Of a stretch of DNA of 64,000 bases, positions 23,282 to 62,439 are shown in pieces. Position 1 is the stretch's first letter; the number at the start of each line of letters is the position of its first letter. The position numbers and the translations under genes were made by a program. This stretch comes from Candidatus Doudnabacteria bacterium. GTDB taxonomy: Bacteria > Patescibacteriota > Doudnabacteria > UBA920. The stretch is taken from contig PLYC01000013.1 in NCBI GenBank assembly GCA_003151625.1, forward strand, positions 29,210-93,209, given 5' to 3'. The notes under the pieces are model-generated. The model had not been told where the DNA came from. It ran no database searches and worked only from the letters and a program-made list of their open reading frames with translations.

Positions 23282-23560
23282 TTACTTTTTCTTCCAAAAA
23301 CTTTTTGCCTTTTTTTCCATCGCCTTGAGCCTGGTATAATAATCAGGAAATTCGTTTAAATGCGCGAGCGCGATTTTACCGGTAAGGATATCATTATCAC
23401 CGGTCACATTGGTATGTGGATCTACTGTACCGTGCTCCAGCTCCACTATAAGGCCCATTCTAAATTGATTAATGTCAAACTTATCCCACAAAATGCCAAG
23501 TCGGCTCCCAATCCTCTTGGCGTCTTGGCTAGTGAATTTTTTGGCAATATGATGTTTCAT
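23282..23560 (-). CDS. conserved small protein (DUF5661-like)
   Basis: FRMGLIVELEHG...GKIALAHLNEFPDYYTRL; family recalled from memory. Confidence 0.45.
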   Translation of the reverse strand: MKHHIAKKFTSQDAKRIGSRLGILWDKFDINQFRMGLIVELEHGTVDPHTNVTGDNDILTGKIALAHLNEFPDYYTRLKAMEKKAKSFWKKK

Positions 23561-23787
23561 AAATTTGTGATTATAAATTATTGAAATAAAAGGCTCCCGA
23601 CCCTTTTTTCAGTTTCATTGTTTGTTTATGGCCATATTTTTAACTTTTAAAAATTTAAATTAAAGGTTCCTGACATCTTTTCTATTACATTGTACAAGCC
23701 ACCGGCCCCGGCTCCTGTTTCCCCTTCCCGCATCCCGCTGCAAGCAAAACAAAACCAACTATAATAAATAATGTTTTTTTCATAAAA

Positions 23788-24294
23788 TTACCTATTCCCT
23801 TGGACAACTCCATCCGGAGGGATAAAACTATTAAGAAGTTTTGTGTATTTCAGCTGAAGATCCTTTGAAATTTGAGGGTGGTTGAATGCCTCCATTATGC
23901 CTTGATTTTCAACAATAGTTGCAGCTTTATCAAAGTAAAAGCCTTCTGGTGTTGCAAGAAAGAGATATGACGGCTTCCATGACTCAAACATCCGTTTTGC
24001 ATCAAGAAGAATTCGGTCAGCTCTAGGCGACATCATATATTTTACTTCTATCAAATGAACCTCATGCGTTTCGTTATTAATCACAACAAAATCAGGCGCT
24101 CGTCTAATAATTTCCATTGTTTCCTGAGCATGGATGTCGCGCTGACGATGGGCCAATTCTGGCAGTACGCTTTCATAACCAAAAGCAAGTATGGTAAAGC
24201 ACCCTGTATCCCGAAGCATCTGCTCAAATAATGTCTCTGCTATCCTTCCTTTGACCAGATTTTTTGAAAAATATATTGGGTCACTATTTATCAT
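23788..24294 (-). CDS. hypothetical protein with PD-(D/E)xK-like motif
   Basis: PDFVV...HLIEVKYM resembles the D...E.K nuclease core. Confidence 0.4.
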   Translation of the reverse strand: MINSDPIYFSKNLVKGRIAETLFEQMLRDTGCFTILAFGYESVLPELAHRQRDIHAQETMEIIRRAPDFVVINNETHEVHLIEVKYMMSPRADRILLDAKRMFESWKPSYLFLATPEGFYFDKAATIVENQGIMEAFNHPQISKDLQLKYTKLLNSFIPPDGVVQGNR

Positions 24295-24415
24295 AATTCT
24301 GTTAAATTATTTTTTTAACCAATTTATACAGACTAGTTTATTATTTACCGGGTACACTAAGAGGGAAATTTTGGAAAACCTTCTTTTACAACTTCATTGA
24401 TTGCTTTTACATAAA

Positions 24416-24631
24416 TTAAAGGTTCCTGACACCTTTTCCGTTCCCTGACACCTTTTCCGTTCCTTTCTTAATCATCACGTGTCCCCGGTATTGAGCCAGG
24501 GTTGGCATAGTGTGTTCGTATCCAAACGGGATAACTGTAAATTTTTCTTCTTCTCGAAACATTTGCTCGAAAATTACTTCCGCTACCTTTCCTTTAATCA
24601 AATCTTTGGAAAATTCTATTTCATTGCGCAT
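24416..24631 (-). pseudogene. truncated paralog of gene 23788-24294
   Basis: N-terminal 60 aa align to the neighbour (FSK.L.KG..AE..FEQM.R....FT...FGYE); ORF stops early, ending in a tandem-duplicated hairpin motif. Confidence 0.45.
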
Positions 24632-24686
24632 AAATTTTTAATTACTATTTCAAATTTATAATTAATGGGTCTTGTCCCCATTTTTA

Positions 24687-25931
24687 TTATTTCTCAATAG
24701 TTTTGTTGGTTTCGTAAAGCTCTGCAAATTTAGCTGTCATTGTAGGATTGCCGCGCGTTAGCCTTTTGATTGTCAGGTCTTCTGCTTTATTATTAGCGAG
24801 ACGAAGGTTATTTTCAGAAGACAGGAGAGCCTCTTTGGTTTTTTGGAGATGGTCGATGGTTTTGTCGATTTCACCTACGGCTGTTTTAAAGCGACTAGAG
24901 GCAAGCTCAAAATTTTTGTTAAAACCATCTTTGAACTTATTCATATTTTCCTCAAAGTTGGTGATGTCGATATTTTGGTTCCTTACCAAGGCAAGCTCAG
25001 CTTTATATTTAAGGGAGTTCATGGCCGCGTTGCGTAGCAGTGTTATTATAGGGATGAAAAATTGTGGGCGAACTACATACATTTTGGGATATTTGTGGGA
25101 GACATCGACGATGCCAGTGTTATATAGCTCATTCTCGGCTTCCAGCAGTGTAACAAGGACAGCGTACTCACACTTCTTCTCTGTGCGATCTTTGTCGAGC
25201 TCTTTGAAGTAGTCTTCATTCTTATGTTTGGTTGCAGTGGTGTCTTGCTCATTCTTCATTTCAAACATAATGGAGATAATTTCGTTGCCGGATTCGTCGG
25301 CCTCGCGGTATATATAGTCGCCTTTACTGCCAGTTCTGGAATCATTATCCTTTTCAAAGTATGCATTTTGGAAGCCCGTAGCACGGAGTTTATTAAACTC
25401 AGTCTCACAATGCTGCTCTAAGGTTTCGCCAACCATTTTAGTACTGAGTTTTAATTTAACGTCCTTATAGCGTTCGATCATTTCGTCTTTTAGTCTCAAT
25501 TCGTTTTCATATTTTTCTTTTTGTGAGGATACAAGAAGTTGATTTTCACTATCTTTGCTTTGGAGCTTAGCGGTGAGGCCATCACGTTCTTTTTCGACAG
25601 AATTGACCGCTTCGGTGATGGCAAGTTTTTTCTCAAGCGCTGCATTGTTGATTTTTGATTTCATTTCGGCTATTTCGGTATCCTTCTTTGCAAGGTTTGT
25701 TTGTAGCGCATTTTTAAAATTAGCCTCCGCAAACTCTACGGCATTTTCTTTATCTTTTTCGAGAATTTCCATACGCTCATGCAGTTCTTTTTCAAACTCA
25801 TGGTCGTGGATCTGCTTTAGAATATCGGCAAATCCTGCCTCGTCTACCTTGAAAGTTTTTTTACAATGTGGACATATAATTTCATTCATATTGATTATTT
25901 TAATTTTAATTTGTACCCCGTTGCCTAACAA
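24687..25931 (-). CDS. Zn-ribbon plus coiled-coil protein (DUF2130-like)
   Basis: N-terminal CPHCKKTF zinc ribbon; long coiled-coil middle. Confidence 0.5.
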
Positions 25932-26141
25932 GCTAAAATAAATTAATTAATGACTCCTGATCCATTTCTGATTTGCTAAATTAACTTAACGGCTCCTGAC
26001 CCCTTTTCCGTTCCCATCATTTATTCTAAATATTTTTTCACATCATTCGATGGAAATGAACTCATTAATTCATTATCTGGTTTTTATTTCATTGTCCAAT
26101 TTGTCATAATTTAAATAGAATTATAAAAAAATCCTTACCAA

Positions 26142-28470
26142 TCAAAGAATCTCTTGTACCACCCCTTGAACAGTATCGCCCTCCTCGGGTGTTATTGGCA
26201 TATGGCTTTTGTTTGTGCTTTTGGGTAAAAGTATTCTACGCCCACCCTTTTTATTATACATTTTAATTGTTACATTATCACCCAGCAAAGAAACAACCCT
26301 ATCTCCCGAATAAGCTTTTATTTGTTGCCGACACAAAACTAAATCACCGTCCTCAATTCCGGCCAAATTCATTGAATCCCCGCTAGCTCGTAGTACAAAA
26401 TAATTATAACCAGACTTTATTTTAGTCGCGTTAACGTCAATGTAACCTTCGGTATTTTCTTCTGCATAAAAAGGATTACCACATGGTGCCATGCCTAATA
26501 TCGGTACCCTAAATGTTTTTTTGACAAATTCTTCCACAAGCTGTTTAAATGGTTGCTTTTCGTGCGAAACATCAAAACCCTCTAGTCGACTTTTAAAATA
26601 TTTTTCAGTTTCTTTATTTGTAAAATATACGTAACAGCCTTTCATTCCTCGCGACATAAGAACACGGTAAATATTTTTTACATGTTTTTCAAAATTTTCT
26701 TTATTCCTTTTTAACATCGGATCAGACGTTGCTTTTATGTCAGCTTCGAGTTTACTTTTTTCTGGATTGTATATTAAATCGTCCCCAACTATAACGCCAA
26801 TATAATCAAATTCAAAACCTTGGGCAGTGTATATACAGCCAACTTGCTTAATCCCTTCTGGTTTGTATGCCCACTCAAACCATTTTGCGTAACCTGTTGG
26901 TGGCTTGATTTTATCATGGGTCTCCCAAGGCATTGAAAAATTTCCTATTTTTACATCTTTTACCAATTCTCCTTTTTCGTCTAATTCTTGCGACCATGGC
27001 CAACAGAAGCCGGCTACAAGACGAGCAAAATTTCCTTTTTTTGGATTTTCTTTCTTCCCCATTTTTTCTTTCTCTAAAAGTACAGCATATAAATCCTCAG
27101 GCGTGTCAAAAATTTTAAAATCGAACTTTTCCGTTTTTGAAAGCATTAACCTTTCTTGACTATATCCGAGCGTTGATTCCAGCCAGCTTAAATAATTATT
27201 TGATCCCATGCAACGAAATTGAGTTTCTAGAGTTATTTCGTCTATAGAACAATTAAATTTTTTTGCCGTTTCTCTAATGAGCTCTACGCTTCCTATCTCA
27301 AGTGACCTTATATTTTGCATATCATCAATAAAAAAGACCGATGTTTTTGCAAAACGAATTATTTGATCAATTTGTGGCATATCCGTTCGATGTTCGCGAG
27401 GTGTAAACTGATTATTGCTAGTTTTTCCAATTCTATGTGCTTCGTCAATCAATACTAAATCTCCCTCATTTTCCTTAACCTTTGACGGAATAAACCTATT
27501 TAAATTGGAAATTAATTTTTCTGCTTCTCCGCCCACTAAATTTACAAGGCCGCTAATAAAAGGCTTCGATTTACAAGCATAAAATGCTTTTAAATTTCTT
27601 TTTGTTGCTTCTGCTAAAATATTTAAAGCTATTACAGATTTTCCTGTACCGGGACCGTCGTGTATAATTATGACTGCTTTTTTTTTCTTTTTGTGTCTTT
27701 CTTATCTTTGACCAAATTACATTTTTTGCTACAAGTTGCTCATTTAGTAAAGAAAAAACTGCTTCATTAGAAATTATTTTTGAAACATTTTCCAAGAGTT
27801 TTTTTGAAGGTGTTATAGGACTTTGCATAAATCTATTAAACACCTCGAATCCGTCACCTTTTGAAAGAAGATATTTTATCTTGTCTGCTAATAATTGGGT
27901 ATCATTTTTTGTATAAATAGGAAAATCTCTAACGATATCTTTATAGATAGGTGCAAAAAGGCCCTCATCATCTTGTTTGGGGTAATTATGACAATATGCG
28001 CAACTAAATAGACAAAGAGGTTGGTTCGTCTCAAATTCTGCAATAAAACTTTTTAAATATCCTTCATAACCTTTTACCTGTTGTGATGGATGTGGGACTA
28101 TCCTTGTATTACCGCCTGTATATGTCTCAACGAAGTTACCTTCATCTTCAAGGGTTTGAACACTTGACCATTGTTTTAATTCTATAAGGACAGTATTGTC
28201 ATTATCTGCCTCGTCTTTACCAAAAAGTAAACAATCAATTCTGTTTTGATTGTATGGTACTTCATATTCGAGTGCGACATTAATGTCTTGTAAATCTGCT
28301 ATTTCAATCAAATCCTTAACTCTTGGTAAAGAATTTTGCCAGGAATTAATTTGGCTTTGCCCCGACCTTACTCCAAAAGAAGCCAAAAAAGCGTCGGACA
28401 TTTTATCTGTAAGAACGTTATTTCTAATATCATTACAGAAAGTTTTGGCATCAGCTTTGTATATCAACAT
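26142..28470 (-). pseudogene. DUF2075-family nuclease/helicase fused to C-terminal LexA-like S24 peptidase domain; frameshifted in an A9 tract
   Basis: Upstream ORF (27571-28470) has the DUF2075 N-domain (EYEVPYNQNRIDCLLFG...VLIELKQW). The P-loop IIHDGPGTGKSVIALNIL lies in another frame and is restored by a -1 shift in the A9/T9 run at 27678-27686. The downstream ORF has DLVLIDEAHRI, a UvrD-like YTAQGFEFDY motif, and a C-terminal S24 domain (VLRASGDSMNLAGIEDGDLVL...TIKMY). Confidence 0.7.
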
Positions 28471-28473
28471 ATC

Positions 28474-28821
28474 CTATAGCTCAGTATACTTATTATGTTT
28501 ACCTTTTGCTTTTGCGATTGGATATTTTTTTTCATTCTTTTTCATCTTTCCGCTGAATATTTTAACCAAGTCAATATTCAAATCGTGTGCTATTAACAGT
28601 ACCCAATATAAAGTATCTGCCAATTCTTCGCCAATATCGTTTTTATGTTTTTTTACATACTCAGCTACCTCTTTTTCATTCTTCCACTGAAAATGCTCTC
28701 CAACTTCTGCAGCCTCTAACATCAAAGACAAAGCCAAATCTTTCGGTTTATGGAATTGTTTCCAATCTCGGGCGTCTCGGAAAGCAATTATTTTTTTTGT
28801 TAGCTCTTTGATATCCGACAT
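28474..28821 (-). CDS. MazG-like nucleotide pyrophosphohydrolase
   Basis: All-alpha NTP-PPase motifs LMLEAAEVGEHFQWK and EELADTLYWVLLIA; stop 3 nt from the DUF2075 start. Confidence 0.75.
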   Translation of the reverse strand: MSDIKELTKKIIAFRDARDWKQFHKPKDLALSLMLEAAEVGEHFQWKNEKEVAEYVKKHKNDIGEELADTLYWVLLIAHDLNIDLVKIFSGKMKKNEKKYPIAKAKGKHNKYTEL

Positions 28822-29145
28822 AAAATTAATGACTATTAATCTTTTTCACCGATCTATAAATCATCAAAATACTACCCAGGAAAACTAAACCAAAAAATAT
28901 TTTTTGCAAATGGGTTTGGCAACAATAAATAGGGCAAACGAGAGGACGGTGAGGGGGAAATATAACTAAGGTAAGGGCAGAAATTTTTTTATGCCTTGGG
29001 GAGCCCCATCTCTGCGGACGAGGCAGGATATTTTCCGGCCAAAGGCAAATTACCTTGGAGGTAGCCGCTGGCGTTGGTGATAGGAATTTCCTGGCCTTTT
29101 AGGAAATCTTTGGTATATTGTTCGCCGTTTTCGGACATAAAGATC

Positions 29146-29451
29146 TTATTTTTCCAGATCTTCCGTTAAAATTCCCAAACTTCTTGCGGGCTTAGGCTCC
29201 TCCTTGGCCTGCTCTTTTGGGGCTGGATCAGACTTGGATTTAGGGAGGTCGTCAACATTCACCAAATCCGGTCCCCGGGTTTGCCGATTTTGATCAGCCT
29301 CGGTAAACATCCTTTTGCGGTCGTCCGGACCGATAGGCTTTTCCGTTTCTATCTTCATGGCAGCTTCAAGAGCGGCCCTTGCTTTGGCCGCCCGGGTATC
29401 CCAATGATCAGTTTCTTGATCGAATATACTGGATTGTTCTTTGGTTGGCAT
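29146..29451 (-). CDS. small charged/disordered protein (paralog of 31516-31806)
   Basis: Starts MPT, ends ILTEDLEK; upstream palindrome AAATAGCCTTAATAAGGCTATTT. Confidence 0.45.
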   Translation of the reverse strand: MPTKEQSSIFDQETDHWDTRAAKARAALEAAMKIETEKPIGPDDRKRMFTEADQNRQTRGPDLVNVDDLPKSKSDPAPKEQAKEEPKPARSLGILTEDLEK

Positions 29452-31430: not shown

Positions 31431-31523
31431 CGTAGAGCGAGTGTCCCGCCAAGGCGGGACCGAGCCGAGGAGCTAATACAGGTTCTATACCTCGCAGCTC
31501 TGCTCCGAGGAACCTTTATTTTT
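31431..31523 (+). ncRNA. structured ~110-nt element, copy 2
   Basis: Same conserved 5' and 3' blocks as copy 1 with a different internal hairpin (GTCCCGCC aa GGCGGGAC); terminator CCTCGCAGCTCTGCTCCGAGG plus T-run; minus-gene stop TAA at 31516-31518 lies inside the T-run. Confidence 0.4.
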
Positions 31524-31806
31524 CCGGCTCTTCCGTTAAAACCCCAACACTTTTTTTGGGACGGCTTGAGGGCTTGGGTTGTGGTTCGTCTGCTACTTCC
31601 TTGGGAGCATAAGGATTTTTTCTTTCCGGCTCCCTGCGCGGGTTGCGCATTGCTTCCATTTCGGCTTCTAATTCTCTTCTTTTCTCAGGAGTTAAAGGCT
31701 TGGCGTCTTTTGGTTCGCTACCTGTTTCTGGTATTTGTTTGCGTAAATCTTTAACTCGCCAATCGATGCCTTCTTGTTTACTATCCATTTCACTTAATGT
31801 TGGCAT
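31516..31806 (-). CDS. small charged/disordered protein (paralog of 29146-29451)
   Basis: Starts MPTLSEM, ends VLTEEPEK. Confidence 0.45.
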   Translation of the reverse strand: MPTLSEMDSKQEGIDWRVKDLRKQIPETGSEPKDAKPLTPEKRRELEAEMEAMRNPRREPERKNPYAPKEVADEPQPKPSSRPKKSVGVLTEEPEK

Positions 31807-40195: not shown

Positions 40196-40500
40196 GACCT
40201 TGCCCAGGGCTGTTTTTTGATTTAATATGTAGGCATAAACTAGTTGAACAGCTAGTTGAATGCGGGTTCAACCAGTAAAGCTGTTAAAGCCCTTAATTCC
40301 ATTATCTTTGTCCTAACCCGCCATCCCTGACTATCACCACGATTTCCACTATACGACAAAGAAATAATAATACTAAAAACCAATAACTACTTACTAATAC
40401 TAATCAATACTTAATACTAAATACTATACTCTAATCTAACTTAAATACTACCAACTAACCTAAAACACTGAAACAAATGGGGAAATGGGGGGGGTGGAGA
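40196..40500. repeat. left terminal inverted repeat (~300 bp)
   Basis: About 90 percent identical to the reverse complement of 62440-62757; contains internal palindrome GTTGAAtgcgggTTCAAC, TACTAA-rich iterons and an inner poly-G. Confidence 0.7.
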
Positions 40501-40860: not shown

Positions 40861-43800
40861 ATGGCTTCCGATTCAACGTCAATAACAAATGAAGGTCAGA
40901 ACACGCTCTCGGCGGCGTTAAAGGATATTTTGCCAAATTGTGACAGAGTTGACGCGCTCGTCGGGTATTTTTATTTTTCTGGTTTTCGGGATCTGCATAA
41001 AGAACTTCAGAGCAAAAAGATCCGAATTCTCGTAGGTATGGATATAGATAGGAAAATGATAGAAAAGATTTCTACTTTGAAGGATGCCAATCTTGACTCT
41101 TATCTCACGGATTCAAAAATTTCGTCGCGGGCAGGCGTAAAAGAAAATTATTTTGAGATTTTTTCTCGTGTTTTTAACGATACTGATTATTTTGATGATA
41201 CAGAAGCCCAAGAAGCTTTTAAGAGTTTTTTGGAGAAAATCAAAGACGGAAGTTTGGAAATTAAGAAGTCGGCTAAAGCGAATCATTCGAAGTATTATAT
41301 CTTGCACAATAAACCAGAGCTTTCAGCGAATGGCAGAACGCCAGGCGTTATTGTCACAGGTTCGAGCAACCTAACACTATCAGGGCTTAAGGGGCAAGGA
41401 GAAAATAATATAATCTTGCAGGAAAAGCATTACTACGATGACCACTTCAAACGATTTGAGGAACAATGGAATGATCCAGAAAATATCGGGATTGCAGATA
41501 TAAATTCTGCTGATGAATTTATACAAGAAGTAAAACAGAGGGTTTGGCTTTATGCCCTACCGAAACCTCTCCATATGTTTTATAGGGTTCTTGATGAGTA
41601 TTTTTCAGTAGACGATGTGGAAGATAGAAAGTCACCAGAAGAAATTACTTCCGGTAAATTCTATAACTTAAAATATCAACGGGATGCAATAAATTTAGGA
41701 ATTGACAGAATTGAGAAATTCGGAGGAGTTATTATTGCGGATGTTGTAGGCCTAGGTAAAAGCATTGTCGCATCAGCCATTGCTCATAATCTTAATTTGC
41801 AGACAGTTATTATTGCCCCTCCACACCTTGAAAGTCAGTGGAAAGATTATATGTCTGATTTCGACTTCAAGGGTCAGGTGTATTCAACTGGAAAAATTAA
41901 AGAAGCACTTGAGCGACACGGAAGCGAGGGTGGAAAGTTATTGATAATTTTAGATGAAGCTCACAAGCATAGAAACGAAGATACTGATAATTATATTCTG
42001 CTTCATAAACTTTGCGCGGGCAATCGAGTTATGGCTCTTTCCGCTACTCCTTTTAACAATGACCCAAGGGACATTTATGCCCTTATAAAATTGTTCAGCA
42101 CTCCCGGTCAATCCACTTTAAAAACTGTGGAAAATTTAAGTATGTCATTTCATCAGCTTTTCAAAAGTTATCGTGCGTTAAGAAGGAGTATGCGCCAGAG
42201 CGGGAAGAAGCAAGATGAAAGCGGTGTTGAGGAAATAACCAAGCGCAGTCAAGAAATCGCAAATGAATTACGGAAGATGATTGAACCACTGGTCATTCGC
42301 CGTTCAAGGTTGGATTTGGACGAGATTGAGGTTTATAGAAAAGATTTGAAAGAGCAAAATATTTCGTTTCCAAAAGTTAAAGACCCGGAATTACTTGAAT
42401 ATAAACTAGGCGAAATATCTGATCTGTATATAAGTACGTTAGAAAAAATTGCATCTGATGAGGAGCGAGCAAGTTTTCTCGGCACAAGATATAAATCTGC
42501 TAATTATATTCGACCGGGTTCGGATTTCTTTACGAAACTCATTGAGCAGGAAGAAACAACTGATGGCGAGTCACCCCAAGAGACTATTCAAAGAATGCAG
42601 CAGGCGCAAGTTAACATAGCCAAATTTATGCGGCGTCTACTAGTGAGGAGATTTGAAAGTTCCATAGCCTCTTTCAAAATCTCACTAAATAACATGATCA
42701 CCTCGTCCGAGCTTATGTTGGACTGGTATCTAAATCGCGGCGAAGTGCCAATCTATAAAAAAGGAGATCTTCCTGACACTACCGATCTTGAAGATATGGA
42801 GCCATCTGAAGCAGAAGCGGCGCTTAATAAGCTAGAGGGCAAAGGACTTATCCTTATTCCAAAAGCTGAAATTGATCCACGTTTTGAAGAACACCTGCGA
42901 CACGATATAGAGTTACTAAAAGGTATTTTGGCAAATTGGGATGGTGTAACAGCAGACCCAAAGTATGAATTCTTTGTTAAGAAAGTTACAGAATCTCTAG
43001 CGAAAGAAAATAAACGAAAGCTTGTTGTATTTACCGAATTTTCGGATACTGCGGATTATATATATGAAAAATTAAAGGCTGATGGTTTGCAACGAATTTT
43101 TAAATACACCTCGGGCGATGCTTCGGAAGCAAACAGAAAAACAATTAAAGCCAACTTTGACGCAAGTTTAGATTTATCAAAACAATCTAATGATTTTGAT
43201 ATTATAGTAGCAACGGATGCAATTTCTGAAGGGTTTAATTTGCATCGAGCAGGGACGGTTATAAATTATGATATTCCCTATAATCCTACACGAGTAATTC
43301 AGCGTGTCGGGCGCATTAATCGTATTAGTCAAAAAGTATTTGACGAACTTTTCATTTGGAACTTCTTCCCTACTCCGACGGGAGAATTTGAGACACATAC
43401 ACGGGCTATTTCTACATTAAAAATGAATATGATTCATTCGCTCCTTGGTGAAGATACGAGGATATTTACTAGCGACGAGGAGTTGAAAAATTATTTTGCA
43501 AAACAGTATACGGAAGAAAATAAAAAATTTGATGGGTCCTCATGGGATGCAAAATACAGGAATATCTGGCTGAATATAAAAGGCAATAAAAAAGTTATGG
43601 ACGAAATTGCCAAGATACCGCGTCGGTCGAGAATTGCTAGGAAATCATTAAAAAATGGTGTTGTCGCATTCGCAAAGAACGGCGGTAGTTATGTTTTCGC
43701 TTATGGAAACACAGCAGAAGATGTGATGGTTATTTCTCCCGAAATTGCCCTACCATTATTTGAAGCTAGTGAGGTCGACAAAGCAGAGGAAACGACAACC

Positions 43801-44163
43801 AGCTTTGAGCCAATATACCAGGTCGCTAAAGATCATATATTTAAGAATAATACTCACGCTTCTGTTACCGGCGGGCGTAAACAAGATGCGCTAGGTAAAT
43901 TAAAAGTGTTATCTGAAATGTATCAACCTGCAAAAGATTTATGTTTAGATGCTATCAAAACCATAAAAGACTTGGATGCTCTTCCGAACGGTATTCTAAA
44001 AGAAATCGCGGAATTATATTTAGATAAGGCAAACCTTGCCAAATCCTATACTATTCTCAAAGAGATGCTACCGCCAAAGTACCTTGAGGATATTTTTACA
44101 ACAGCGAAAAGAGCCGAGGAAACGGCTCGGCTGATTGTGTTGTCTGAAGAGTTAATTGCATGA
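40861..44163 (+). CDS. PLD-like nuclease domain fused to SNF2-family helicase
   Basis: N-terminal HKD-like motif NHSKYYILHN...VIVTGSSNLTLSG; helicase motifs I GLGKS, II ILDEAHKHRN, III LSATPFNN and VI QRVGRINRISQ; ATGA overlap with the next gene. Confidence 0.8.
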   Translation: MASDSTSITNEGQNTLSAALKDILPNCDRVDALVGYFYFSGFRDLHKELQSKKIRILVGMDIDRKMIEKISTLKDANLDSYLTDSKISSRAGVKENYFEIFSRVFNDTDYFDDTEAQEAFKSFLEKIKDGSLEIKKSAKANHSKYYILHNKPELSANGRTPGVIVTGSSNLTLSGLKGQGENNIILQEKHYYDDHFKRFEEQWNDPENIGIADINSADEFIQEVKQRVWLYALPKPLHMFYRVLDEYFSVDDVEDRKSPEEITSGKFYNLKYQRDAINLGIDRIEKFGGVIIADVVGLGKSIVASAIAHNLNLQTVIIAPPHLESQWKDYMSDFDFKGQVYSTGKIKEALERHGSEGGKLLIILDEAHKHRNEDTDNYILLHKLCAGNRVMALSATPFNNDPRDIYALIKLFSTPGQSTLKTVENLSMSFHQLFKSYRALRRSMRQSGKKQDESGVEEITKRSQEIANELRKMIEPLVIRRSRLDLDEIEVYRKDLKEQNISFPKVKDPELLEYKLGEISDLYISTLEKIASDEERASFLGTRYKSANYIRPGSDFFTKLIEQEETTDGESPQETIQRMQQAQVNIAKFMRRLLVRRFESSIASFKISLNNMITSSELMLDWYLNRGEVPIYKKGDLPDTTDLEDMEPSEAEAALNKLEGKGLILIPKAEIDPRFEEHLRHDIELLKGILANWDGVTADPKYEFFVKKVTESLAKENKRKLVVFTEFSDTADYIYEKLKADGLQRIFKYTSGDASEANRKTIKANFDASLDLSKQSNDFDIIVATDAISEGFNLHRAGTVINYDIPYNPTRVIQRVGRINRISQKVFDELFIWNFFPTPTGEFETHTRAISTLKMNMIHSLLGEDTRIFTSDEELKNYFAKQYTEENKKFDGSSWDAKYRNIWLNIKGNKKVMDEIAKIPRRSRIARKSLKNGVVAFAKNGGSYVFAYGNTAEDVMVISPEIALPLFEASEVDKAEETTTSFEPIYQVAKDHIFKNNTHASVTGGRKQDALGKLKVLSEMYQPAKDLCLDAIKTIKDLDALPNGILKEIAELYLDKANLAKSYTILKEMLPPKYLEDIFTTAKRAEETARLIVLSEELIA

Positions 44164-47100
44164 TGAAATTTAATGAAAAATATAACCATGAGAGCTTCCT
44201 TGATTTTTTGAACAATTTTCTCCCTGAAGATTTTTTAGAAAAAGAAGAAGACATTGTTATAAACAAAGAAAGATATAAGGAAATAGCCAAAGCTAAAATA
44301 TTGGGTTTTTCAGAGTGTTTAGATTTATATGTTTTAGAAATGGATCACTCCCGGGAAAATGATCCCAGAATTGCTATTGCAACGGACGCTTTTAAAATAC
44401 TTGCTGACCATTGGATACACAGAGCCCTTGTAGTATTTAAAAATAAAGAATCAGAGAATTATAGACTTTCCTATTTAACCATTTCTCTCGATTTAAATGA
44501 TAAAAATAAAGCTGTAAAAAGATACTCAAATGCTCGTAGATACTCTTTTTATCTTGGCCCTAATGCTAAAATAAACACCCCGACGAAGTTTCTTATTAGC
44601 AAAGGTAAAGTTACTGACTTTGACGATCTGAAAAGTAGATTTTCTATTGAGGTTGTTAATAAAGAATTTTACAAAGAAATATCCCAAGCATTTACTAAAC
44701 TTATTGATGGATTACTTAAGCTCCCTTCGAATGAAGATAAAAATCAGACTAGCATAGAATTTGCGGTTCGTTTAATTGGCAGGATCATCTTTTGCTGGTT
44801 CTTACGCGAAAAAAAAAGCCAAACTGGGTCAGCTTTGATGCCGAAAGAACTATTGTCTCTGTCTGCTGTCCAGGAAAACAGCGACTATTATCACAGGATT
44901 CTTGAACCTATTTTTTTTGAAGTTCTCAATAAGCCTGTTAAATCCAGAATAGATGGTTTTGCCAAGGAGCCTTTTTCCTATGTGCCTTATTTGAATGGTG
45001 GTTTATTTTCACCTCAAGATAACGATTATTACAAACGCATTAATAGCGCTTTTCAATCGCAATATCAAAATAATTTAGTAATTCCTGACGATTGGCTTAA
45101 AGACTTTTTTGAAATCCTTGAGACTTATAATTTCACAATAGACGAAAATACTAGCTTTGATGAAGAACTTTCCATCGATCCGGAGATGCTTGGAAGAATT
45201 TTTGAAAACCTTCTTGCAGAAATAAACCCGGAAACAGGAGAATCTGCGCGTCAAAGTACGGGTAGTTTCTATACACCGAGGACAATTGTAGATTATATGA
45301 TTGACGAAAGTTTGATGCTGTACCTAAAAAATCTAACACAGATTGAAGATAAAAAGCTAAAAGCTATTGTAAGTTATGATTTGAATGATGATGCGGCTAA
45401 TCCACTCAATCTTGATGAGAAGCAAAAAATTGTTGATGCCCTCGAGAGAGTAAAGATACTTGATCCAGCTTGTGGTTCGGGAGCTTTTCCCATAGGTGCT
45501 CTTCAAAAAATAGTTTTCATTCTCCAGCAGGTAGATCCTGATGGGCAAATGTGGTTTACAAAACAAATTCAGAATACATCCCCAGAAATAAAAAGGGTAA
45601 TAGAGCGCGAATTTGCTCATAAGAATTTTGATTATATTAGAAAACTTGGAATTATAAGAGAAAATATCTACGGTATTGATATTCAGTCAATCGCTATAGA
45701 GATATCTCGGCTAAGATGTTTTTTAACCTTAGTTGTCGACGAACGTATACAGGAGGACTTAGATAATAGAGGAATTGAGCCTTTACCAAATTTGGATTTT
45801 AAGTTTGTGGTCTCTAATACTCTTTTTGGTCTTCCAGGATCAGAGTCCTTAAGTCAATCTGAACTGTTCGAAGATGATGCTGGAATACAAGAATTAAAAG
45901 GGCTTAGGGACTTGTTCTTTAATGCTTCTGGGGTTGAACGAGATCAATTACAGCTTAAATTTGTCCAAGCTCAAAATAGAATGTTTCAACGTCTTATTAG
46001 TGAAGGCAGGAGGGGTTTGGGTCAATTAACCACTCAATTAACCACATGGGATCCATTTAGTCACAATCTTTCATCGTGGTTTGATTCTGAATGGATGTTC
46101 GGGATAAAGGACGGCTTTGATATTGTGATTGCTAACCCACCCTACGTATCGACAAAAGGAGTTGAAGAAAATTCAAAAGAACAACTTGAAAATAAATATG
46201 GTTTTGCAGATGACCTGTATTCCCATTTTTATTTTAGAGGTTTTGAACTATGCAAAGGCGGAGGCTTTCTTTCTTATATAACTAGTAAGACCTTCTGGGT
46301 CATTCAAACAAAAAAGAACCTTCGTGAATTATTGCTTAAAAATAATATTATTGATATTTATGATACCGCTAATCCGTTTGAAAGTGTGATGGTAGATACT
46401 TGTGTAGTTCTGGCTCAGAAAGAGAATAGGCAGGAAAATAAAATTAACTTCTTGAAAGCAGATAATGATTATTCGAATCCGATTCGGCTGGAAGTAGATA
46501 AGTCAATTTATGAAAATGCTGTAAATACAGTTATTTTTAGTCCGTCTCATGAAAATCTTGTGATATATCATAAATACAATACTGCAGTGAGTGAACTGAT
46601 GAAAAAATGGTGGCCATTAATCAATACGAGTAAAAATATTACAAAATATGGCACACAGCTAACAAAATACAGAGATAATTTAAAATCAGGAGAGGTTACA
46701 CTTTTAGGGTTAATTACAGATGGTGGACAAGGTCTCGCAACTGCAAACAATGGTAAATATGTTGGCGTGCTTTCCAGCACAAAGGAAGCAGTAAAAATAG
46801 AGGAAGCACGTATTAAGAAGTTTTTTGAATTTGTTACTCAGCGAACAATTAGTGAATATGGAACTAGTAAAGAATCTATTCGGGCAAATTTAAATAAATT
46901 ATCAGAGCAACAACTTCGGGCACTTTTTGATACATTGAAAGATAAATATGGGCAAGATCTTTTCGGAAAAGGATTCCTGTACCGCATCGTTGATTCTAGA
47001 GAGATAAAGAATATAGATAAAATGACTGACAATGAAAAAGAAGACGGCCTAGTTGGTGATCAATCATTTGTACCGTATGATAAAGGAGACAAGGAAGGCA

Positions 47101-48968: not shown

Positions 48969-49086
48969 ACTGTACAGTCTAGCAGGTTAAGAAAGAAGCC
49001 TAAAGGCGCTAGGCATTTAGGTTTCTTTTCGGCTCCACACTATTCATTTTTCGATATTAAATAGGGTTATTATAGTTATATAAAAT

Positions 49087-49120
49087 AAAAGACCGTGGCT
49101 ATTTTGGCCACGGTCTTTTT
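49087..49120. terminator. bidirectional hairpin terminator
   Basis: AAAAGACCGTGGC tatttt GCCACGGTCTTTTT. Confidence 0.65.
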
Positions 49121-49168
49121 AAGACTTTGATTCCATTTTAATTTATGTTTATTTCTTTTTGCAACCAA

Positions 49169-49369
49169 CTATTTCTGCCTGTTATAAGGTGACTGATTTG
49201 TTGGGTGAAGCGAGAAACCCAATTCAGAAGCTTTGGAATATACTGCTTCCGGCGTGCGCCCTAGTTTTAGAGCAATAACCCTTGTTGGTGTGTTCTCTTT
49301 TGCCATAGTTTTTAAGTTTCTCTCGTCTTGTTGTTCCCATTGCTTTCCAAAATTTTTTGGCCAAGTCAT
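49169..49369 (-). CDS. small putative HTH regulator, divergent from LexA-like gene
   Basis: 66 aa; TRVIALKLGRTPEAVYSKASELG HTH-like segment. Confidence 0.4.
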   Translation of the reverse strand: MTWPKNFGKQWEQQDERNLKTMAKENTPTRVIALKLGRTPEAVYSKASELGFSLHPTNQSPYNRQK

Positions 49370-49524
49370 TGATTTAATTTCCTTTCAAATTTTAACTGTT
49401 CGACCTTTGCTTTTTGTTTCTGGCGTTTTTCCTCCGCCATTAACTATACATTAGTAAGTTTTTGAAAATCCGTCAAGTATTAAGGACTTATTGCATTTTT
49501 AAAATATTTATGTTAGTATGAGTT

Positions 49525-50193: not shown

Positions 50194-50206
50194 TACAACT
50201 AAAATT

Positions 50207-59615: not shown

Positions 59616-62372
59616 TTAAACTGATTCCGACTGGATGTCTCCCCTATCCGGCGCGGCAGCAGTCTTTTTTTTGTTCATGGCTTTGTTAAATTGCTCTTCG
59701 TTGTCGCTTGAGTAATATATGGAGTTTACAGCAGTGCGCTCCCAAACAATATCGTCTTGGGGTGTGCCGTATTTGTCCATAGCCTGGGATATGTAATAGT
59801 CTTCGGTTTCTTTGGCGTTGTCCGTGTGATGTTCGGTTTTTTGGATGTTTATGGACATAGCGTCCTGCGGCACGCCCTTAACCAGGGTTTTAATGTATGC
59901 CGTACCCGTGGGCAGATTAATAATGTCCTCAACCAAAGCCTTGCCGCCTAAAATCTTTTCGGCGATCTCGGCGTCATCTACCGACTGGGTGCGCATAAAG
60001 ATTTTAGTGGCAATGTTGGATTCTATGGATTTTTGTATTCTTTGGTCCAACTGGCCCATAAATTGGTTACTAATAACTAATGCCGTGTTAAAAGCCCTGA
60101 CTTCGGAAAACAGAGTTTCAAAAATATCACTGGCCACCCTTTGGAATTCGTCTACTACAAAAACCGTCGGTTTTCTCTGCTCGCTAGCCAGTCTGGCTTG
60201 GCCAAAGATAGCCTCGGCAATATGAGCGGTTAGGTAGACAGAATAGTACTTTTTCATCTGTTCGCTGGAAGAGCCTAAATTGGCGATAAATATCTTGCCC
60301 GTGTTAATCATGTCCTCAAAAGATATTTTGGCTTCTTTTCGGTCTACAATATTCATAAACTCCGGGTAGTCCAGGAATTTGCCCAGCTTGTTGTTAGTGG
60401 TGGCCAAGTATTTGGCCAAGTCATTATTACTACGCTTTAAAATTGAGGTAGACCAAAAGTTTTGTAAGCGTGGGGGCAAATAGGCTATCAGTCTGCCAAT
60501 TTGCTCGGGCTGGTGAAGGAGCATGTCCAAACCGGACAGTGATTGTTCCGGCAAAATGTAGGCCGTGGCAAATAATTGCCTTAAGATGTTTTCCAGTTCC
60601 GGCCCCCAGGAGTAGGCGGAGTCAATTTGCACAAACCGTTTCATTATGGAGATTAAAAATTCCAGTTTTTCCTCGTCGGTTTTGCTGCCGGAAAACTTGG
60701 AAAAAAACGGAAAAGCCAAAGGCCTGTCTTTTTGCCTTTGGGGATTAAAGTAAATCACATCAGCTTTCCTGCTCTCGGGAATCATAGTTAATAAGTCCGT
60801 GGCAAAGTCGTTTTTGGGGTCGACAATCAACATGGCGGGTTTTTCGCCACCTTGTTTCTGTAAAAGACTGTGGAGAATAGTTTTTAGGGTTTCCGACTTT
60901 CCCGCTCCTGTGCCGCCTAAGATGTAGATGTGCTTTTTCATATCGTCCCAGGTGGCTATGCCGATGGGGGTTTCGTCTTGCATACGGAAGTTAGACTTCC
61001 CCAAGGACAGGAAAAAGTTGTCGGGATATCTTCTGATTTGCTGACTGGCAGGGAGTTTTTTAAAACGGGTAAGGTTAATGGAGGAAACAGTTTCCTCCTG
61101 GGTATTGGGCAAATGCCAAAAGGAGTAAAGCTCGCCGTCCGAAATCATCTGCCCGTAGTTTATGAATTTGGCAAAGGGCCACAGTAAAAATCGTCTTAAG
61201 CGGAGCACCGGCTTGGCGGCAACTATATCTGTCAGCCAGCCATTTTTCTCTAGATTGTCCACCTGTTTCGTAAATAGCAGCCTGTGCTTTAAGGTATTCA
61301 TATTTTTTTGGTTCAGTTCGGCCAGTGTACCCTGGATACTGCGGAGTTTGGCCTTTGACTCCTGGGGGTTGTCTGCTACGGTCCAGTAGGAAACTATTGT
61401 CTGAAACAGCGGGGCTTTCATTTTTTCAATCATGGCGCTGTTCAAGGAATTGGCCAGTTCCGAACCGGCTCCCCACTTTTGGATGGCAAATTTTTTGTCG
61501 CTTTGGTTTACGGCCCCTTGCTGTTCCTGCTCCTCAATGAGATAGTGGATTATTTGGTTAAAATAATGGGAGGAGGGAGAAACCAGGACATTGTAAACCA
61601 TAAATTGGCCTTTCTTCAGGCCTTCCATAACTGAGATAATGGAATCTACGGGGTCGCTGGAAACGTCTTTAAAAGTTTTAACTCTATGGAAAAACTTGCC
61701 TTCTATGGTAGTTTCCCCATAACTTAAAAACCCTTGTGGAAACTCTGTAAGTTCCTCAAGGGCTTTATCTTTGTCCAGCATTGTTATTTCCGCGCTTGGG
61801 TAGGCGTTAAAAATGGCCTTTTCCACGCGCTCAAAGTCCTTGCCCGGCACCTGGAGCCTAAAGGAGATAAAGGGGTGCTGGGCCCAGATTTGCATGCTGA
61901 AAAATATCTGTCTGGAACGCTTAACCTTCCAGATCCGCCACAGCTTTTGGAAGAAGTAGATAAAGCCAAATGTGCTGGAAAAATTATGCGCGCCCTCCAC
62001 CGGGTCAATGTATATGGCGTGGAAGGCTTTAAGGATTTTTTGCTGGATTTGAAAAGCCGTGGCTTGGGAGTTTTTGGGGATGGTAATTTCAAAATACAGG
62101 CTGGTGTCCAGCCATGCTTCCAAATCTTTTTTCTTTAGCTTTATCTTTTCAAAAGAGTGGCGGTTAAAGCCCGGAAGTTTGTCAAAAACGAACATGAAGA
62201 ACAAAATCGTAATGCCTATCCAGCCAGCGATATTTTCCCAAAACGGCATTCGGCTGAAATAGTAAGTCCACATGATTTGGCCCATAGTCATCGGGCCGTG
62301 AGGCGTGGTAAAGACATGTTGAAAGACATCAGTTGTGGCTGGATGAGATACAATATGATGTACTACTGCCAT
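59616..62372 (-). CDS. conjugation/T4SS-type P-loop ATPase (VirD4/TraG/TcpA-like coupling protein or VirB4-like)
   Basis: N-terminal TM helices; Walker A ILGGTGAGKSETLKT; Walker B TVFVVDEFQRV; 918 aa. Confidence 0.6.
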   Translation of the reverse strand: MAVVHHIVSHPATTDVFQHVFTTPHGPMTMGQIMWTYYFSRMPFWENIAGWIGITILFFMFVFDKLPGFNRHSFEKIKLKKKDLEAWLDTSLYFEITIPKNSQATAFQIQQKILKAFHAIYIDPVEGAHNFSSTFGFIYFFQKLWRIWKVKRSRQIFFSMQIWAQHPFISFRLQVPGKDFERVEKAIFNAYPSAEITMLDKDKALEELTEFPQGFLSYGETTIEGKFFHRVKTFKDVSSDPVDSIISVMEGLKKGQFMVYNVLVSPSSHYFNQIIHYLIEEQEQQGAVNQSDKKFAIQKWGAGSELANSLNSAMIEKMKAPLFQTIVSYWTVADNPQESKAKLRSIQGTLAELNQKNMNTLKHRLLFTKQVDNLEKNGWLTDIVAAKPVLRLRRFLLWPFAKFINYGQMISDGELYSFWHLPNTQEETVSSINLTRFKKLPASQQIRRYPDNFFLSLGKSNFRMQDETPIGIATWDDMKKHIYILGGTGAGKSETLKTILHSLLQKQGGEKPAMLIVDPKNDFATDLLTMIPESRKADVIYFNPQRQKDRPLAFPFFSKFSGSKTDEEKLEFLISIMKRFVQIDSAYSWGPELENILRQLFATAYILPEQSLSGLDMLLHQPEQIGRLIAYLPPRLQNFWSTSILKRSNNDLAKYLATTNNKLGKFLDYPEFMNIVDRKEAKISFEDMINTGKIFIANLGSSSEQMKKYYSVYLTAHIAEAIFGQARLASEQRKPTVFVVDEFQRVASDIFETLFSEVRAFNTALVISNQFMGQLDQRIQKSIESNIATKIFMRTQSVDDAEIAEKILGGKALVEDIINLPTGTAYIKTLVKGVPQDAMSINIQKTEHHTDNAKETEDYYISQAMDKYGTPQDDIVWERTAVNSIYYSSDNEEQFNKAMNKKKTAAAPDRGDIQSESV

Positions 62373-62439
62373 AATACAGATTTAATTTTTAATCCACTCC
62401 CCCACCCCGCCGCTTCGCGGCGGGAAACTTTCTTCCACC

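What the first reader, a model, noticed from the sequence alone, without database searches (positions are those of the whole stretch)
26142..28821. DUF2075 nuclease-helicase fused to a LexA-type S24 autoprotease domain, split by a frameshift in an A9 tract and coupled to a MazG-like NTP pyrophosphatase
The ORF 27571-28470 carries the DUF2075 N-terminal restriction-endonuclease-like region. The P-loop (IIHDGPGTGKSVIALNIL) is readable only after a one-base shift inside the homopolymer at 27678-27686, which joins it to ORF 26142-27536. That ORF carries DEAH-like and UvrD-like motifs and ends in a complete LexA C-terminal domain (GDSM...K). A self-cleaving SOS-sensing domain fused to an SF1 nuclease-helicase is unusual, and the MazG partner (dNTP depletion is a known defence activity) suggests a damage- or phage-triggered effector. 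The A9 run could be a sequencing error, a decayed gene or a phase-variable switch.
Basis: partly seen in the sequence, partly recalled or inferred. Interest (0 to 1): 0.75.

Follow-up and report, generated by a model that had tools for sequence, protein, structure and literature searches.

The report
Broken SOS-tailed nuclease-helicase defence gene
A two-gene, defence-type module (a dCTPase-like MazG enzyme plus an Nhi-like nuclease-helicase carrying a captured LexA self-cleaving tail) is really there and recurs intact in many microbes, but this genome's copy is knocked out by an extra A and a damaged ATP-binding loop.

Summary
Removing one base from the A9 tract (27678-27686) fuses the two minus-strand ORFs into one 775-aa protein. 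It has an N-terminal PD-(D/E)XK-like nuclease, a DUF2075/Schlafen-type SF1B helicase and a complete LexA-type S24 domain (Cys-Gly site, Ser, Lys). A DCTPP1-like MazG gene sits 3 nt upstream.

The architecture is not a one-off. Intact 777-827-aa fusions occur in several phyla. The MazG partner is adjacent in 55 of 68 species-representative loci (81%), and an S24 tail is present in 15 of 68. The tail comes in two types and has been gained or lost repeatedly. TIR or PIF1 modules can occupy the same position. The locus lies in a low-GC island within a defence-rich region.

This copy looks inactivated rather than switchable. An independent JGI contig carries the same A9, and other long homopolymers in the window keep their frames. 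No homolog has an A run longer than 7 at this spot. The first Walker A glycine, invariant in every homolog retrieved except one decayed copy (L077), is Asp here. Two other genomes carry independent P-loop lesions.

Most likely function of intact members: an Nhi-like antiphage effector gated by RecA*-stimulated autocleavage (inferred). I found no publication describing the fusion or the MazG pairing.

The parts
28474..28821 (-). MazG-like all-alpha NTP pyrophosphatase (115 aa), DCTPP1/RS21-C6 type. Its stop lies 3 nt before the nuclease-helicase ATG.
   Evidence: PF12643 E 4e-14. PDB 6sqw/2a3q dCTP pyrophosphatase 1 E 6e-18 and 4qgp E 7e-19. EAAEVGE and EELAD metal motifs are present. A homolog is adjacent upstream in 55 of 68 loci.
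27679..28470 (-). N-terminal restriction-endonuclease-like (PD-(D/E)XK) domain, aa 1-264. Candidate catalytic residues are E68/E70 (28261-28269), D79 (28234-28236) and E97-L-K99 (28174-28182).
27678..27686 (-). A9 homopolymer (T9 on the plus strand) in a Lys-rich linker. One extra A relative to an intact frame (A8) shifts the reading frame. ORF1 then ends at 27571 after 35 out-of-frame residues.
   Evidence: The same A9 is in the independent JGI contig L008. Homolog loci have an A run of 7 or fewer here.
26619..27677 (-). SF1B helicase core (Pfam SLFN-g3_helicase = DUF2075), aa 265-617, readable only in the +1 frame.
   Evidence: PF09848 E 2.4e-80. Foldseek on the intact homolog P0001: SLFN11, RecD, RecD2, nsp13, Dna2, Upf1, Dda.
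27636..27659 (-). Walker A motif DGPGTGKS. The first Gly of the family-invariant GGPGTGKS is replaced by Asp (G271D).
   Evidence: Gly in all 57 fetched homolog proteins and in the loci listed. Among the homologs retrieved, only the decayed copy L077 shares the Asp.
27432..27449 (-). Walker B / motif II (L)IDEAHR, intact.
   Evidence: The column is invariant in alignment A2.
26505..26618 (-). Linker between the helicase core and the S24 domain (aa 618-655).
   Evidence: Low-confidence, unstructured segment in the AF2 model of P0001 (residues 633-650, pLDDT below 50).
26157..26504 (-). LexA-type S24 autoprotease domain (aa 656-771). Cleavage-site Cys663-Gly664 at 26478-26483, nucleophile Ser699 at 26373-26375, general base Lys736 at 26262-26264.
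   Evidence: PF00717 E 2.4e-20. phmmer alignment to E. coli LexA puts C-G on A84-G85, Ser on S119 and Lys on K156. LexA CTD fold, TM 0.75-0.82. The tail is 60-75% identical to free S24 proteins and 51-57% to LexA repressors.
28894..28922 (-). Promoter-like site about 70 nt upstream of the MazG start (weak evidence).
   Evidence: Consensus scan, 9 of 12 matches. The number of sites in the region is not above the shuffled expectation.

Best explanation
The locus is a horizontally acquired two-gene module of a widespread family that I infer to be antiphage. It has (1) a DCTPP1-like MazG NTP pyrophosphatase and (2) an Nhi-like effector with an N-terminal PD-(D/E)XK nuclease and an SF1B DUF2075/Schlafen-type helicase. 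In this lineage the effector has captured a LexA C-terminal S24 autoprotease as a flexible C-terminal tail.

In intact members I infer the following. The nuclease-helicase attacks phage replication intermediates, as shown for Nhi. The MazG partner hydrolyses dCTP or modified dNTPs. The S24 tail makes the effector responsive to RecA*-ssDNA filaments: autocleavage at Cys-Gly/Ala-Gly removes the tail and changes the effector's state, most likely licensing it.

In this genome the effector gene is inactivated. A +1 A insertion (A8 to A9) 6 codons before the P-loop truncates the protein after the nuclease domain. The Walker A also carries G271D. Everything else is intact, so the inactivation is recent. 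The MazG gene remains intact.

Shown: anatomy, conservation, the lesions, and their reproducibility. Inferred: defence function, RecA* gating, and the direction of the switch.
For: Anatomy.

Conservation of the pair: MazG-like is adjacent upstream in 4 of 4 fusion loci and in 55 of 68 evaluable species-representative loci. It also occurs in a Priestia plasmid R-M island and a Microcystis phage at 32-34% helicase and 48-49% MazG identity.

Defence context: a low-GC island of 32-39% against 42-53% flanks. Neighbours include a DrmD-like HKD+Snf2 protein, a Type IIG RE-MTase and PDC-M48B. Family members are fused to TIR, PIF1 or N6-MTase. PADLOC gives PDC-S41/Nhi/AbiO hits. Nhi and Nhi-like proteins with this architecture are experimentally antiphage.

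Tail: Ser/Lys are present in all fusions, with C-G or A-G in most. The tail derives from a LexA CTD, is attached by a flexible linker, and has been repeatedly gained or lost. It is the commonest C-terminal add-on.

Inactivation: the identical A9 is in independent JGI contig L008, which differs by one synonymous SNP. All other homopolymers of 8 or more bases (7 or more for G/C) that lie in long ORFs keep their frame. Homologs have A runs of 7 or fewer here. G271D falls at a position that is Gly in every homolog except the decayed copy L077. The ORF2 start lies downstream of the P-loop. Independent P-loop lesions occur in L032 (HG*PGTGKS) and L077 (HDGPGKGKS plus stops).
Against: No reads were available, so tract-length heterogeneity cannot be excluded. 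L008 could come from a related sample.

G271D is predicted to be damaging, not shown to be. Only 2 of 137 invariant downstream positions differ and there are no further stops, so a reversible OFF state or low-level rescue by slippage is not excluded.

No member of this exact clade has been tested against phage. The PADLOC Nhi model matches only the P-loop region (E 1e-7). RecA dependence of the tail is untested.

Some type-B tails lack the canonical Gly at the cleavage site (A-T). LexA-like proteins that do not follow the RecA paradigm are reported (abstract of PMC7101444, listed).
Confidence: 0.6

Rival explanations
1. The A9 tract is a functional contingency switch or recoding site. Slipped-strand mispairing (A8<->A9), transcriptional slippage, or +1 ribosomal slippage on AAA-AAA-A restores a fraction of full-length protein. 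This would keep a potentially toxic effector at low or stochastic levels.
For: A9 is at the length where polymerase slippage becomes appreciable (established knowledge on A/T runs of 9 or more in bacteria). The +1 shift is geometrically possible on the last AAA codon. Both halves are otherwise intact, with 214 of 216 invariant positions kept. Defence genes are commonly phase-variable (general knowledge).
Against: None of about 70 homolog loci has an A run longer than 7 at this position, so the tract is not a conserved feature. Two independent assemblies both show A9. Any restored product would carry Walker A G271D. No stimulatory element for +1 frameshifting is evident, since AGC is not a hungry codon. 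A -1 shift terminates at once.
Confidence: 0.15
2. The extra A is a sequencing or assembly artefact and the gene is intact in the organism.
For: Homopolymers are the classic site of indel errors. Several long-read MAG loci of this family show multiple frameshifts (L064, 65, 69, 73, 75, 76, 80-82).
Against: The JGI contig L008 is 1040/1041 identical and has the same A9. Every other homopolymer of 8 or more bases (7 or more for G/C) lying in a long ORF of this window keeps its frame, including an A9 and a T8 in the 1172-codon methylase ORF and three runs in the P-type ATPase ORF. G271D is a substitution, not a homopolymer error.
Confidence: 0.08
3. At the family level, the module is not immunity but an SOS-linked DNA-repair or replication-stress factor. 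In this reading the helicase-nuclease processes damaged forks, the MazG enzyme sanitises the dNTP pool, and the S24 tail works like UmuD or LexA. Alternatively, within a defence reading, cleavage of the tail switches the effector OFF: it exposes a C-terminal ...AAA/...APC end that could act as a ClpXP-type degron, as in cleaved LexA, and so protects host repair intermediates during SOS.
For: The S24 domains closest to the tail are LexA/UmuD. DCTPP1-type enzymes are house-cleaning enzymes (molecule names). SLFN11, the top structural match, acts at stressed replication forks (for the match, for the quoted role). Type-B sites would leave ...KAAA-COOH after cleavage, resembling known ClpX signals (own knowledge).
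Against: Genomic context is consistently defence or mobile: R-M, TA, HEPN/MNT, DISARM-like, Type IIG. There are TIR and N6-MTase fusions in the family. Distribution is patchy and HGT-like across bacteria, archaea and a phage, with repeated pseudogenisation. Tested proteins of the same architecture are antiphage.
Confidence: 0.17

Closest known systems
Nhi (S. epidermidis SERP2475; Bari et al. 2022) and 'Nhi-like' (Millman et al. 2022)
   Same: A single polypeptide with an N-terminal PD-(D/E)XK-type nuclease followed by a DUF2075 SF1B helicase. Found in defence islands.
   Different: There is no meaningful full-length sequence match; the PADLOC Nhi HMM matches only aa 241-419, E 1e-7. This family has an obligate-looking DCTPP1-like MazG partner (81% of loci) and, in a fraction of members, an S24 tail. 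Neither feature is mentioned for Nhi or Nhi-like in the papers read.
Human SLFN11 and other group III Schlafens
   Same: They share the Pfam helicase family (PF09848), and SLFN11 is the top Foldseek PDB hit (7zel, E 4e-8). Both combine a nuclease with an SF1B-like helicase. SLFN11 responds to DNA damage and replication stress.
   Different: The Schlafen N-terminal nuclease is a different fold and an RNase. Any coupling to damage in the bacterial protein would be through a LexA-type autoprotease, which is absent from eukaryotic Schlafens. Overall TM is low (0.25).
LexA / UmuD / lambda cI S24 autoproteases
   Same: A complete catalytic domain with a Ser-Lys dyad and a cleavage dipeptide aligned to LexA A84-G85. 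It is Cys-Gly here, as in UmuD (own knowledge). Ser-Lys spacing is 37 (LexA/UmuD-like) in the window type and 43-45 (cI-like) in type B.
   Different: There is no wHTH DNA-binding domain; the TIGR00498 score of 73.9 is below the 110.95 cut-off. The domain is C-terminal to a ~650-aa enzyme rather than to a repressor or polymerase subunit.
DCTPP1/RS21-C6 house-cleaning dCTP pyrophosphatase, and nucleotide-depletion defences (dCTP deaminase, dGTPase)
   Same: The partner is a close sequence relative of DCTPP1 (E 6e-18) with intact metal-binding motifs. Depletion or sanitation of dCTP pools is a known antiphage logic (own knowledge).
   Different: It is not a deaminase or triphosphohydrolase, and its substrate is unknown. 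It always works as the upstream partner of a nuclease-helicase rather than alone.
Phase-variable (contingency) restriction-modification genes
   Same: A homopolymeric tract inside the coding region of a defence-type gene, one unit out of frame.
   Different: The tract is not conserved in relatives, no length polymorphism is seen between two assemblies, and it is accompanied by an active-site substitution.

Membership tests
Pfam PF09848 (DUF2075 / SLFN-g3_helicase) | Full-length HMM match above the gathering score | tested here: met
   270.9 bits against GA 24, model positions 1-353 of 354, on the repaired protein.
SF1B helicase | Intact Walker A (G/A-x4-G-K-S/T) | tested here: not met
   The window has DGPGTGKS. 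The first position is Gly in all 57 fetched homolog proteins and in the loci. Walker B DEAH and later motifs are intact.
SF1B helicase | RecA-like 1A/2A fold matching SF1B members | tested here: met
   Foldseek on the AF2 model of intact homolog P0001: RecD, RecD2, Dda, Upf1, Dna2, nsp13, SLFN11, E 4e-8 to 2e-5.
Nhi / Nhi-like antiphage nuclease-helicase | N-terminal PD-(D/E)XK nuclease domain | tested here: met
Nhi / Nhi-like antiphage nuclease-helicase | Sequence membership (family HMM over most of its length) | tested here: not met
   PADLOC Nhi E 1.1e-7, but only model positions 183-329 of 470. The best PADLOC hit is candidate PDC-S41, N-terminal part only.
Nhi / Nhi-like antiphage nuclease-helicase | Protects cells from phage | not testable with these tools
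   Supported only by context.
Peptidase S24 (LexA-type autoprotease) | Domain HMM above threshold and LexA CTD fold | tested here: met
   PF00717 72.8 bits against GA 23.3. TM 0.75-0.82 to LexA CTD structures.
Peptidase S24 (LexA-type autoprotease) | Ser-Lys dyad and a scissile (Ala/Cys)-Gly in the cleavage loop | tested here: met
   C663-G664, S699 and K736 align to LexA A84-G85, S119 and K156. Ser and Lys are conserved in all fusions examined. A few type-B tails have A-T instead of A-G.
Peptidase S24 (LexA-type autoprotease) | RecA*-stimulated self-cleavage | not testable with these tools
   Needs biochemistry.
LexA repressor (TIGR00498) | N-terminal winged-HTH DNA-binding domain plus equivalog score | tested here: not met
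   73.9 bits, below the 110.95 cut-off. Only model positions 77-195 match and there is no PF01726 hit.
MazG-like / DCTPP1 NTP pyrophosphatase | HMM above threshold and ExxE...EExxD metal-binding motifs | tested here: met
   PF12643 53 bits against GA 27. DCTPP1 E 6e-18. EAAEVGE and EELAD are present.
Phase-variable contingency locus | Tract-length polymorphism among samples or strains, and tract conservation among relatives | tested here: not met
   Two assemblies both show A9. Relatives have A runs of 7 or fewer. This is limited power, because no reads were available.

The most novel reading that the evidence does not exclude
In intact members the captured LexA C-terminal domain turns an Nhi-like / Schlafen-type nuclease-helicase into a RecA*-licensed immune effector. 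RecA-ssDNA filaments produced by phage replication or prophage induction would trigger autocleavage and arm (or disarm) the enzyme, while the DCTPP1-like partner strips dCTP or modified dCTP. That would be a direct protein-level wiring of the SOS signal into an antiviral effector, and a bacterial parallel to SLFN11's DNA-damage-triggered action. In this genome the A8/A9 tract might additionally act as a reversible off switch.
Probability: 0.25. Interest if true: 0.8.

Novelty: new variant of a known kind. Interest (0 to 1): 0.55.

Why it matters
Nhi-type nuclease-helicases are known single-protein antiphage enzymes, but how they are kept from attacking the host is unclear. This family offers two undescribed handles on that question. 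One is a near-obligate dCTPase-like partner. The other is an optional LexA-type self-cleaving tail in ten or more clusters at 50% identity, sharing its slot with TIR and PIF1 modules. If the tail responds to RecA*, it would be a simple, testable example of SOS sensing wired post-translationally into an immune effector. It would also be a functional parallel to human SLFN11.

The recurrent knock-outs at the P-loop in three lineages also hint that the active ATPase is costly. For this particular window the practical message is more modest: the gene is a recently disabled copy, not a working switch.

Tried and rejected
1. The look-up of encoding contigs on the window's 464-aa ORF (P0028) returned nothing. 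The 299-aa ORF gave only the JGI contig, so the source record and reads could not be reached.

2. A sequence search of the nuclease-helicase part against PDB gave only generic AAA P-loop hits. Fold searches were needed instead.

3. Literature searches found nothing relevant: DUF2075+MazG, S24/anti-phage/autocleavage/RecA, Nhi+MazG, Schlafen+LexA, MazG-like+defense island, PDC-S41. 'S24' in Millman et al. turned out to be table numbers.

4. -1 programmed frameshifting is rejected, because the -1 frame hits TAA after three codons (sequence).

5. Independent translation of ORF2 as a helicase is rejected. The first ATG/GTG/TTG start is at residue 312, after the Walker A.

6. DUF2130, DUF5661 and the small flanking ORFs are not conserved partners.

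7. MazG-less loci have no alternative conserved upstream gene.

8. The promoter and terminator scan was not above the shuffled expectation.

9. Multi-frameshift loci in long-read MAGs were not counted as biological pseudogenes.

10. Host taxonomy was not pursued. The last large homology search was judged not worth the cost.
Full report
**1. Observation**

On the minus strand, ORF 28470..27571 (299 aa) is followed by ORF 27536..26142 (464 aa) in another frame. The coding strand reads ...CAA AAA GAA AAA AAA AGC AGT..., with nine A's at 27686-27678.

Removing one A gives a single 775-aa ORF reading ...KEKK-AVIIIHDGPGTGKSVIALNIL.... The shift required is +1. A -1 shift reads AAG CAG TCA TAA and stops.

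The first canonical start of the second ORF (GTG 27536, residue 312 of the repaired protein) lies after the P-loop. As encoded, the locus can therefore give only a 264-residue nuclease fragment with a 35-residue nonsense tail, and at best a Walker-A-less fragment.

**2. Domains**

- Pfam on the repaired protein: PF09848 (SLFN-g3_helicase, formerly DUF2075) at aa 264-617, E 2.4e-80, and PF00717 Peptidase_S24 at aa 656-771, E 2.4e-20.
- NCBIfam matches only the C-terminal half of the lexA model (73.9 bits, below the 110.95 cut-off), so this is a LexA C-terminal domain and not a LexA.
- phmmer against PDB aligns the tail to E. coli LexA residues 75-190. Cys663-Gly664 falls on the Ala84-Gly85 scissile bond, Ser699 (GDSM) on Ser119 and Lys736 (TIKMY) on Lys156.
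- An AF2 model of the closest intact homolog, P0001 (pLDDT 74), matches human SLFN11, RecD, RecD2, nsp13, Dna2, Upf1 and Dda. That makes it an SF1B helicase rather than UvrD-like. It also matches LexA C-terminal domains at TM 0.75-0.82. The linker (633-650) and the cleavage loop (662-671) are low-confidence, as expected for a flexibly tethered module.
- E68/E70, D79 and E97-x-K99 are invariant in 52 homologs. The nuclease assignment is therefore supported, though at modest scores.
- The upstream ORF 28821..28474 is PF12643 MazG-like. It is closest to dCTP pyrophosphatase 1/RS21-C6 (E 6e-18) and an archaeal pyrophosphatase (E 7e-19), and its EAAEVGE and EELAD metal motifs are intact.

**3. Is the architecture real elsewhere?**

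Yes. A search of 5.8 billion proteins found 4155 relatives at E ≤ 1e-10 among the 8000 candidates scored.

- Intact fusions of 777-827 aa include P0001 (79% identical, Patescibacteria MAG) and P0002 (Gastranaerophilales). Many others carry source labels of Deltaproteobacteria, Planctomycetota or Omnitrophota.
- The closest cores (P0005, P0007, P0008; 79-82% identical) have no tail.
- In a scan of one genome per species, 76 loci were recovered from many bacterial phyla and several archaea.
- Of 68 evaluable loci, 55 (81%) have a MazG-like ORF directly upstream on the same strand. Fifteen (22%) have an S24 tail, and 12 of those 15 also have MazG.
- The pair persists at 32-34% helicase identity in a Priestia aryabhattai plasmid, between a restriction endonuclease and a type I R-M system, and in Microcystis phage Mwe-JY31. 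There the MazG partner is 48-49% identical.
- An exhaustive profile search finds 1014 clusters at 50% identity with E ≤ 1e-30.
- Of the 13 top-150 representatives that are 776-826 aa long, 11 carry Peptidase_S24 (10 above Pfam's gathering threshold), one carries a TIR domain and one has no recognised domain. Other members have a C-terminal PIF1 helicase or an N-terminal N6 DNA methylase.

**4. The tail is modular**

- Two types exist. Type A (this window, P0001-P0004) has an (A/P/G)-C-G site and a Ser-Lys spacing of 37-38, as in LexA and UmuD. Type B has KAAAG and a spacing of 43-45, as in cI-type repressors.
- P0006, a close relative of the window by helicase core, has a type-B tail.
- On a neighbour-joining tree of the core, tailed and tail-less members are interleaved, which implies repeated gain, loss or exchange.
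- Searched alone, the type-A tail is 60-75% identical to free-standing S24 proteins of 125-205 aa (one labelled Candidatus Paceibacterota). It is 51-57% identical to proteins with a LexA DNA-binding domain. That indicates a fairly recent capture of a LexA C-terminal domain.
- Ser and Lys are kept in every fusion. A subgroup of type-B tails (P0047, P0049, P0062, P0063, P0068) has A-T instead of A-G at the expected site, which remains unexplained.

**5. Context in the window**

- The module lies in a 32-39% GC stretch (about 23.5-28.9 kb) between flanks of 42-53% GC.
- The window also has a DrmD-like HKD+Snf2 helicase (40861-44163), a Type IIG restriction-methylase (44160-47666), a full-length PDC-M48B candidate (50207-51256) and a type IV coupling protein (59616-62372).
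- Fusion loci elsewhere sit next to toxin-antitoxin genes, HEPN/MNT, HNH and further DUF2075 genes.
- Together with the TIR and MTase fusions, this fits an immunity module on mobile DNA.
- Published work shows that proteins of the same architecture, Nhi and Nhi-like, protect against phage. Nhi requires both nuclease and helicase activities and limits phage DNA accumulation.
- I found no paper that mentions a MazG partner or an S24 tail for such proteins.

**6. What is the frameshift?**

*Against a sequencing error:*
- A JGI metagenome contig (L008, 1041 bp) is identical to window 28475..27435 except for one synonymous SNP at 28114, and it has the same A9.
- Every other homopolymer of 8 or more bases (7 or more for G/C) that lies in a long ORF of this window leaves the frame intact. 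These include an A9 and a T8 in the 1172-codon methylase ORF and three runs in the P-type ATPase ORF.

*Against a conserved switch:*
- At this position all homolog loci encode a Lys-rich linker, but none has an A run longer than 7.

*A second lesion:*
- The residue after His270 is Asp (DGPGTGKS). It is Gly in all 57 fetched homolog proteins and in the loci listed. The one exception among the homologs retrieved is the decayed copy L077, which has the same Asp.
- This is the first glycine of the Walker A motif, 6 codons after the tract, and L008 shares the change.
- Of the positions invariant in 15 other family members, the window keeps 79 of 79 before the shift and 135 of 137 after it. The exceptions are G271D and A289T.
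- The inactivation is therefore recent, but there is more than one lesion, and both bear on the ATPase.

*The pattern recurs:*
- L032 (a Bacteroidales MAG) has a single nonsense codon inside the Walker A (HG*PGTGKS) in an otherwise intact gene.
- L077 has HDGPGKGKS plus stop codons.
- I read this as repeated selection against an active, presumably costly ATPase. With three cases this is only suggestive.

**7. Mechanism (inferred)**

In intact members the nuclease-helicase would act like Nhi on phage replication intermediates. The DCTPP1-like partner would hydrolyse dCTP or modified dCTP, either starving phage replication or removing modified precursors.

The S24 tail would bind RecA*-ssDNA filaments and self-cleave at Cys-Gly/Ala-Gly. 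That leaves a product the size of the tail-less family members (about 625-655 aa). My preferred reading is that cleavage relieves autoinhibition, or tail-mediated dimerisation, and so arms the enzyme.

The opposite reading is a real rival. Cleavage might expose a degron-like ...AAA end and remove the enzyme during host SOS. A non-immune SOS repair role is less likely given the context.

**8. Verdict**

The fusion and the MazG coupling are genuine, recurrent and apparently undescribed, which makes this a new variant of the Nhi-like kind. The copy in this window is most likely a recently inactivated allele rather than a working phase switch.

Noticed in passing
L032:4105-5988 and L077:5028-6056: Independent lesions at the same Walker A motif in two other genomes. 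L032 has a single stop codon replacing the second Gly (HG*PGTGKS) in an otherwise intact gene. L077 has the same Gly->Asp as the window, plus T->K and stop codons. This suggests recurrent selection for ATPase-dead alleles.
   Followed up: partly
window 40861-51256: A defence cluster about 12 kb away: a DrmD-like HKD(PLD)+Snf2 helicase (40861-44163), a Type IIG restriction-methylase (44160-47666), an unknown 433-aa ORF, and a full-length match to PADLOC candidate PDC-M48B (50207-51256, E 4e-81).
   Followed up: partly
window 59616-62446: A TrwB/VirD4-like type IV coupling protein (59616..62372, minus strand) with a C9 homopolymer at 62438-62446, about 66 nt upstream of its start. A G8 tract at 40487-40494 lies upstream of the PLD-Snf2 gene. 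Both are possible promoter-tract variability sites.
   Followed up: no
window 23500-28900: A low-GC island (32-39% against 42-53% flanks) holds DUF5661, a 168-aa ORF, DUF2130, and the MazG/nuclease-helicase pair. The 168-aa ORF (23788..24294) has a homolog (E 9e-30) about 2.7 kb downstream of the helicase in a Paceibacterota MAG (L012:9624-10124).
   Followed up: partly
window 24416-24631: A 71-aa ORF whose first ~45 residues are 51% identical to the N-terminus of the neighbouring 168-aa ORF (23788..24294). It is a truncated paralog remnant.
   Followed up: partly
window 29146-29451 and 31516-31806: Two small paralogous ORFs (101 and 96 aa, 36% identical over ~60 aa). They are acidic and Pro/Lys-rich with a shared C-terminal ...G(I/V)LTE(D/E)xEK motif. 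No Pfam search was run on them and no homolog turned up in the related loci; function unknown.
   Followed up: no
P0265, P0273, P0223 (family representatives): The same nuclease-helicase core is fused C-terminally to a TIR domain (P0265) or a PIF1-like helicase (P0273), and N-terminally to an N6 DNA methylase (P0223). The C-terminus is a modular slot typical of immune proteins.
   Followed up: partly
P0047, P0049, P0062, P0063, P0068 (type-B tails): These S24 tails keep the Ser and Lys but read KAAATQFG where relatives have KAAAG, so the Gly of the scissile bond is replaced by Thr. They may be non-cleavable or may cleave elsewhere.
   Followed up: no
L004:7416-10374 and L085:1904-5890: Some loci carry a second, divergent DUF2075 gene in tandem. 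In L004 it follows an HNH nuclease gene. In a Hymenobacter plasmid two DUF2075 genes sit next to a DNA methyltransferase and DUF4747.
   Followed up: no
L064, L065, L069, L073, L075, L076, L080-L082: Many MAG loci, mostly 'MFD' contigs that I judged to be long-read assemblies, show the helicase split into 2-5 fragments. These are probably assembly indels, a caution for pseudogene counts in this family.
   Followed up: no
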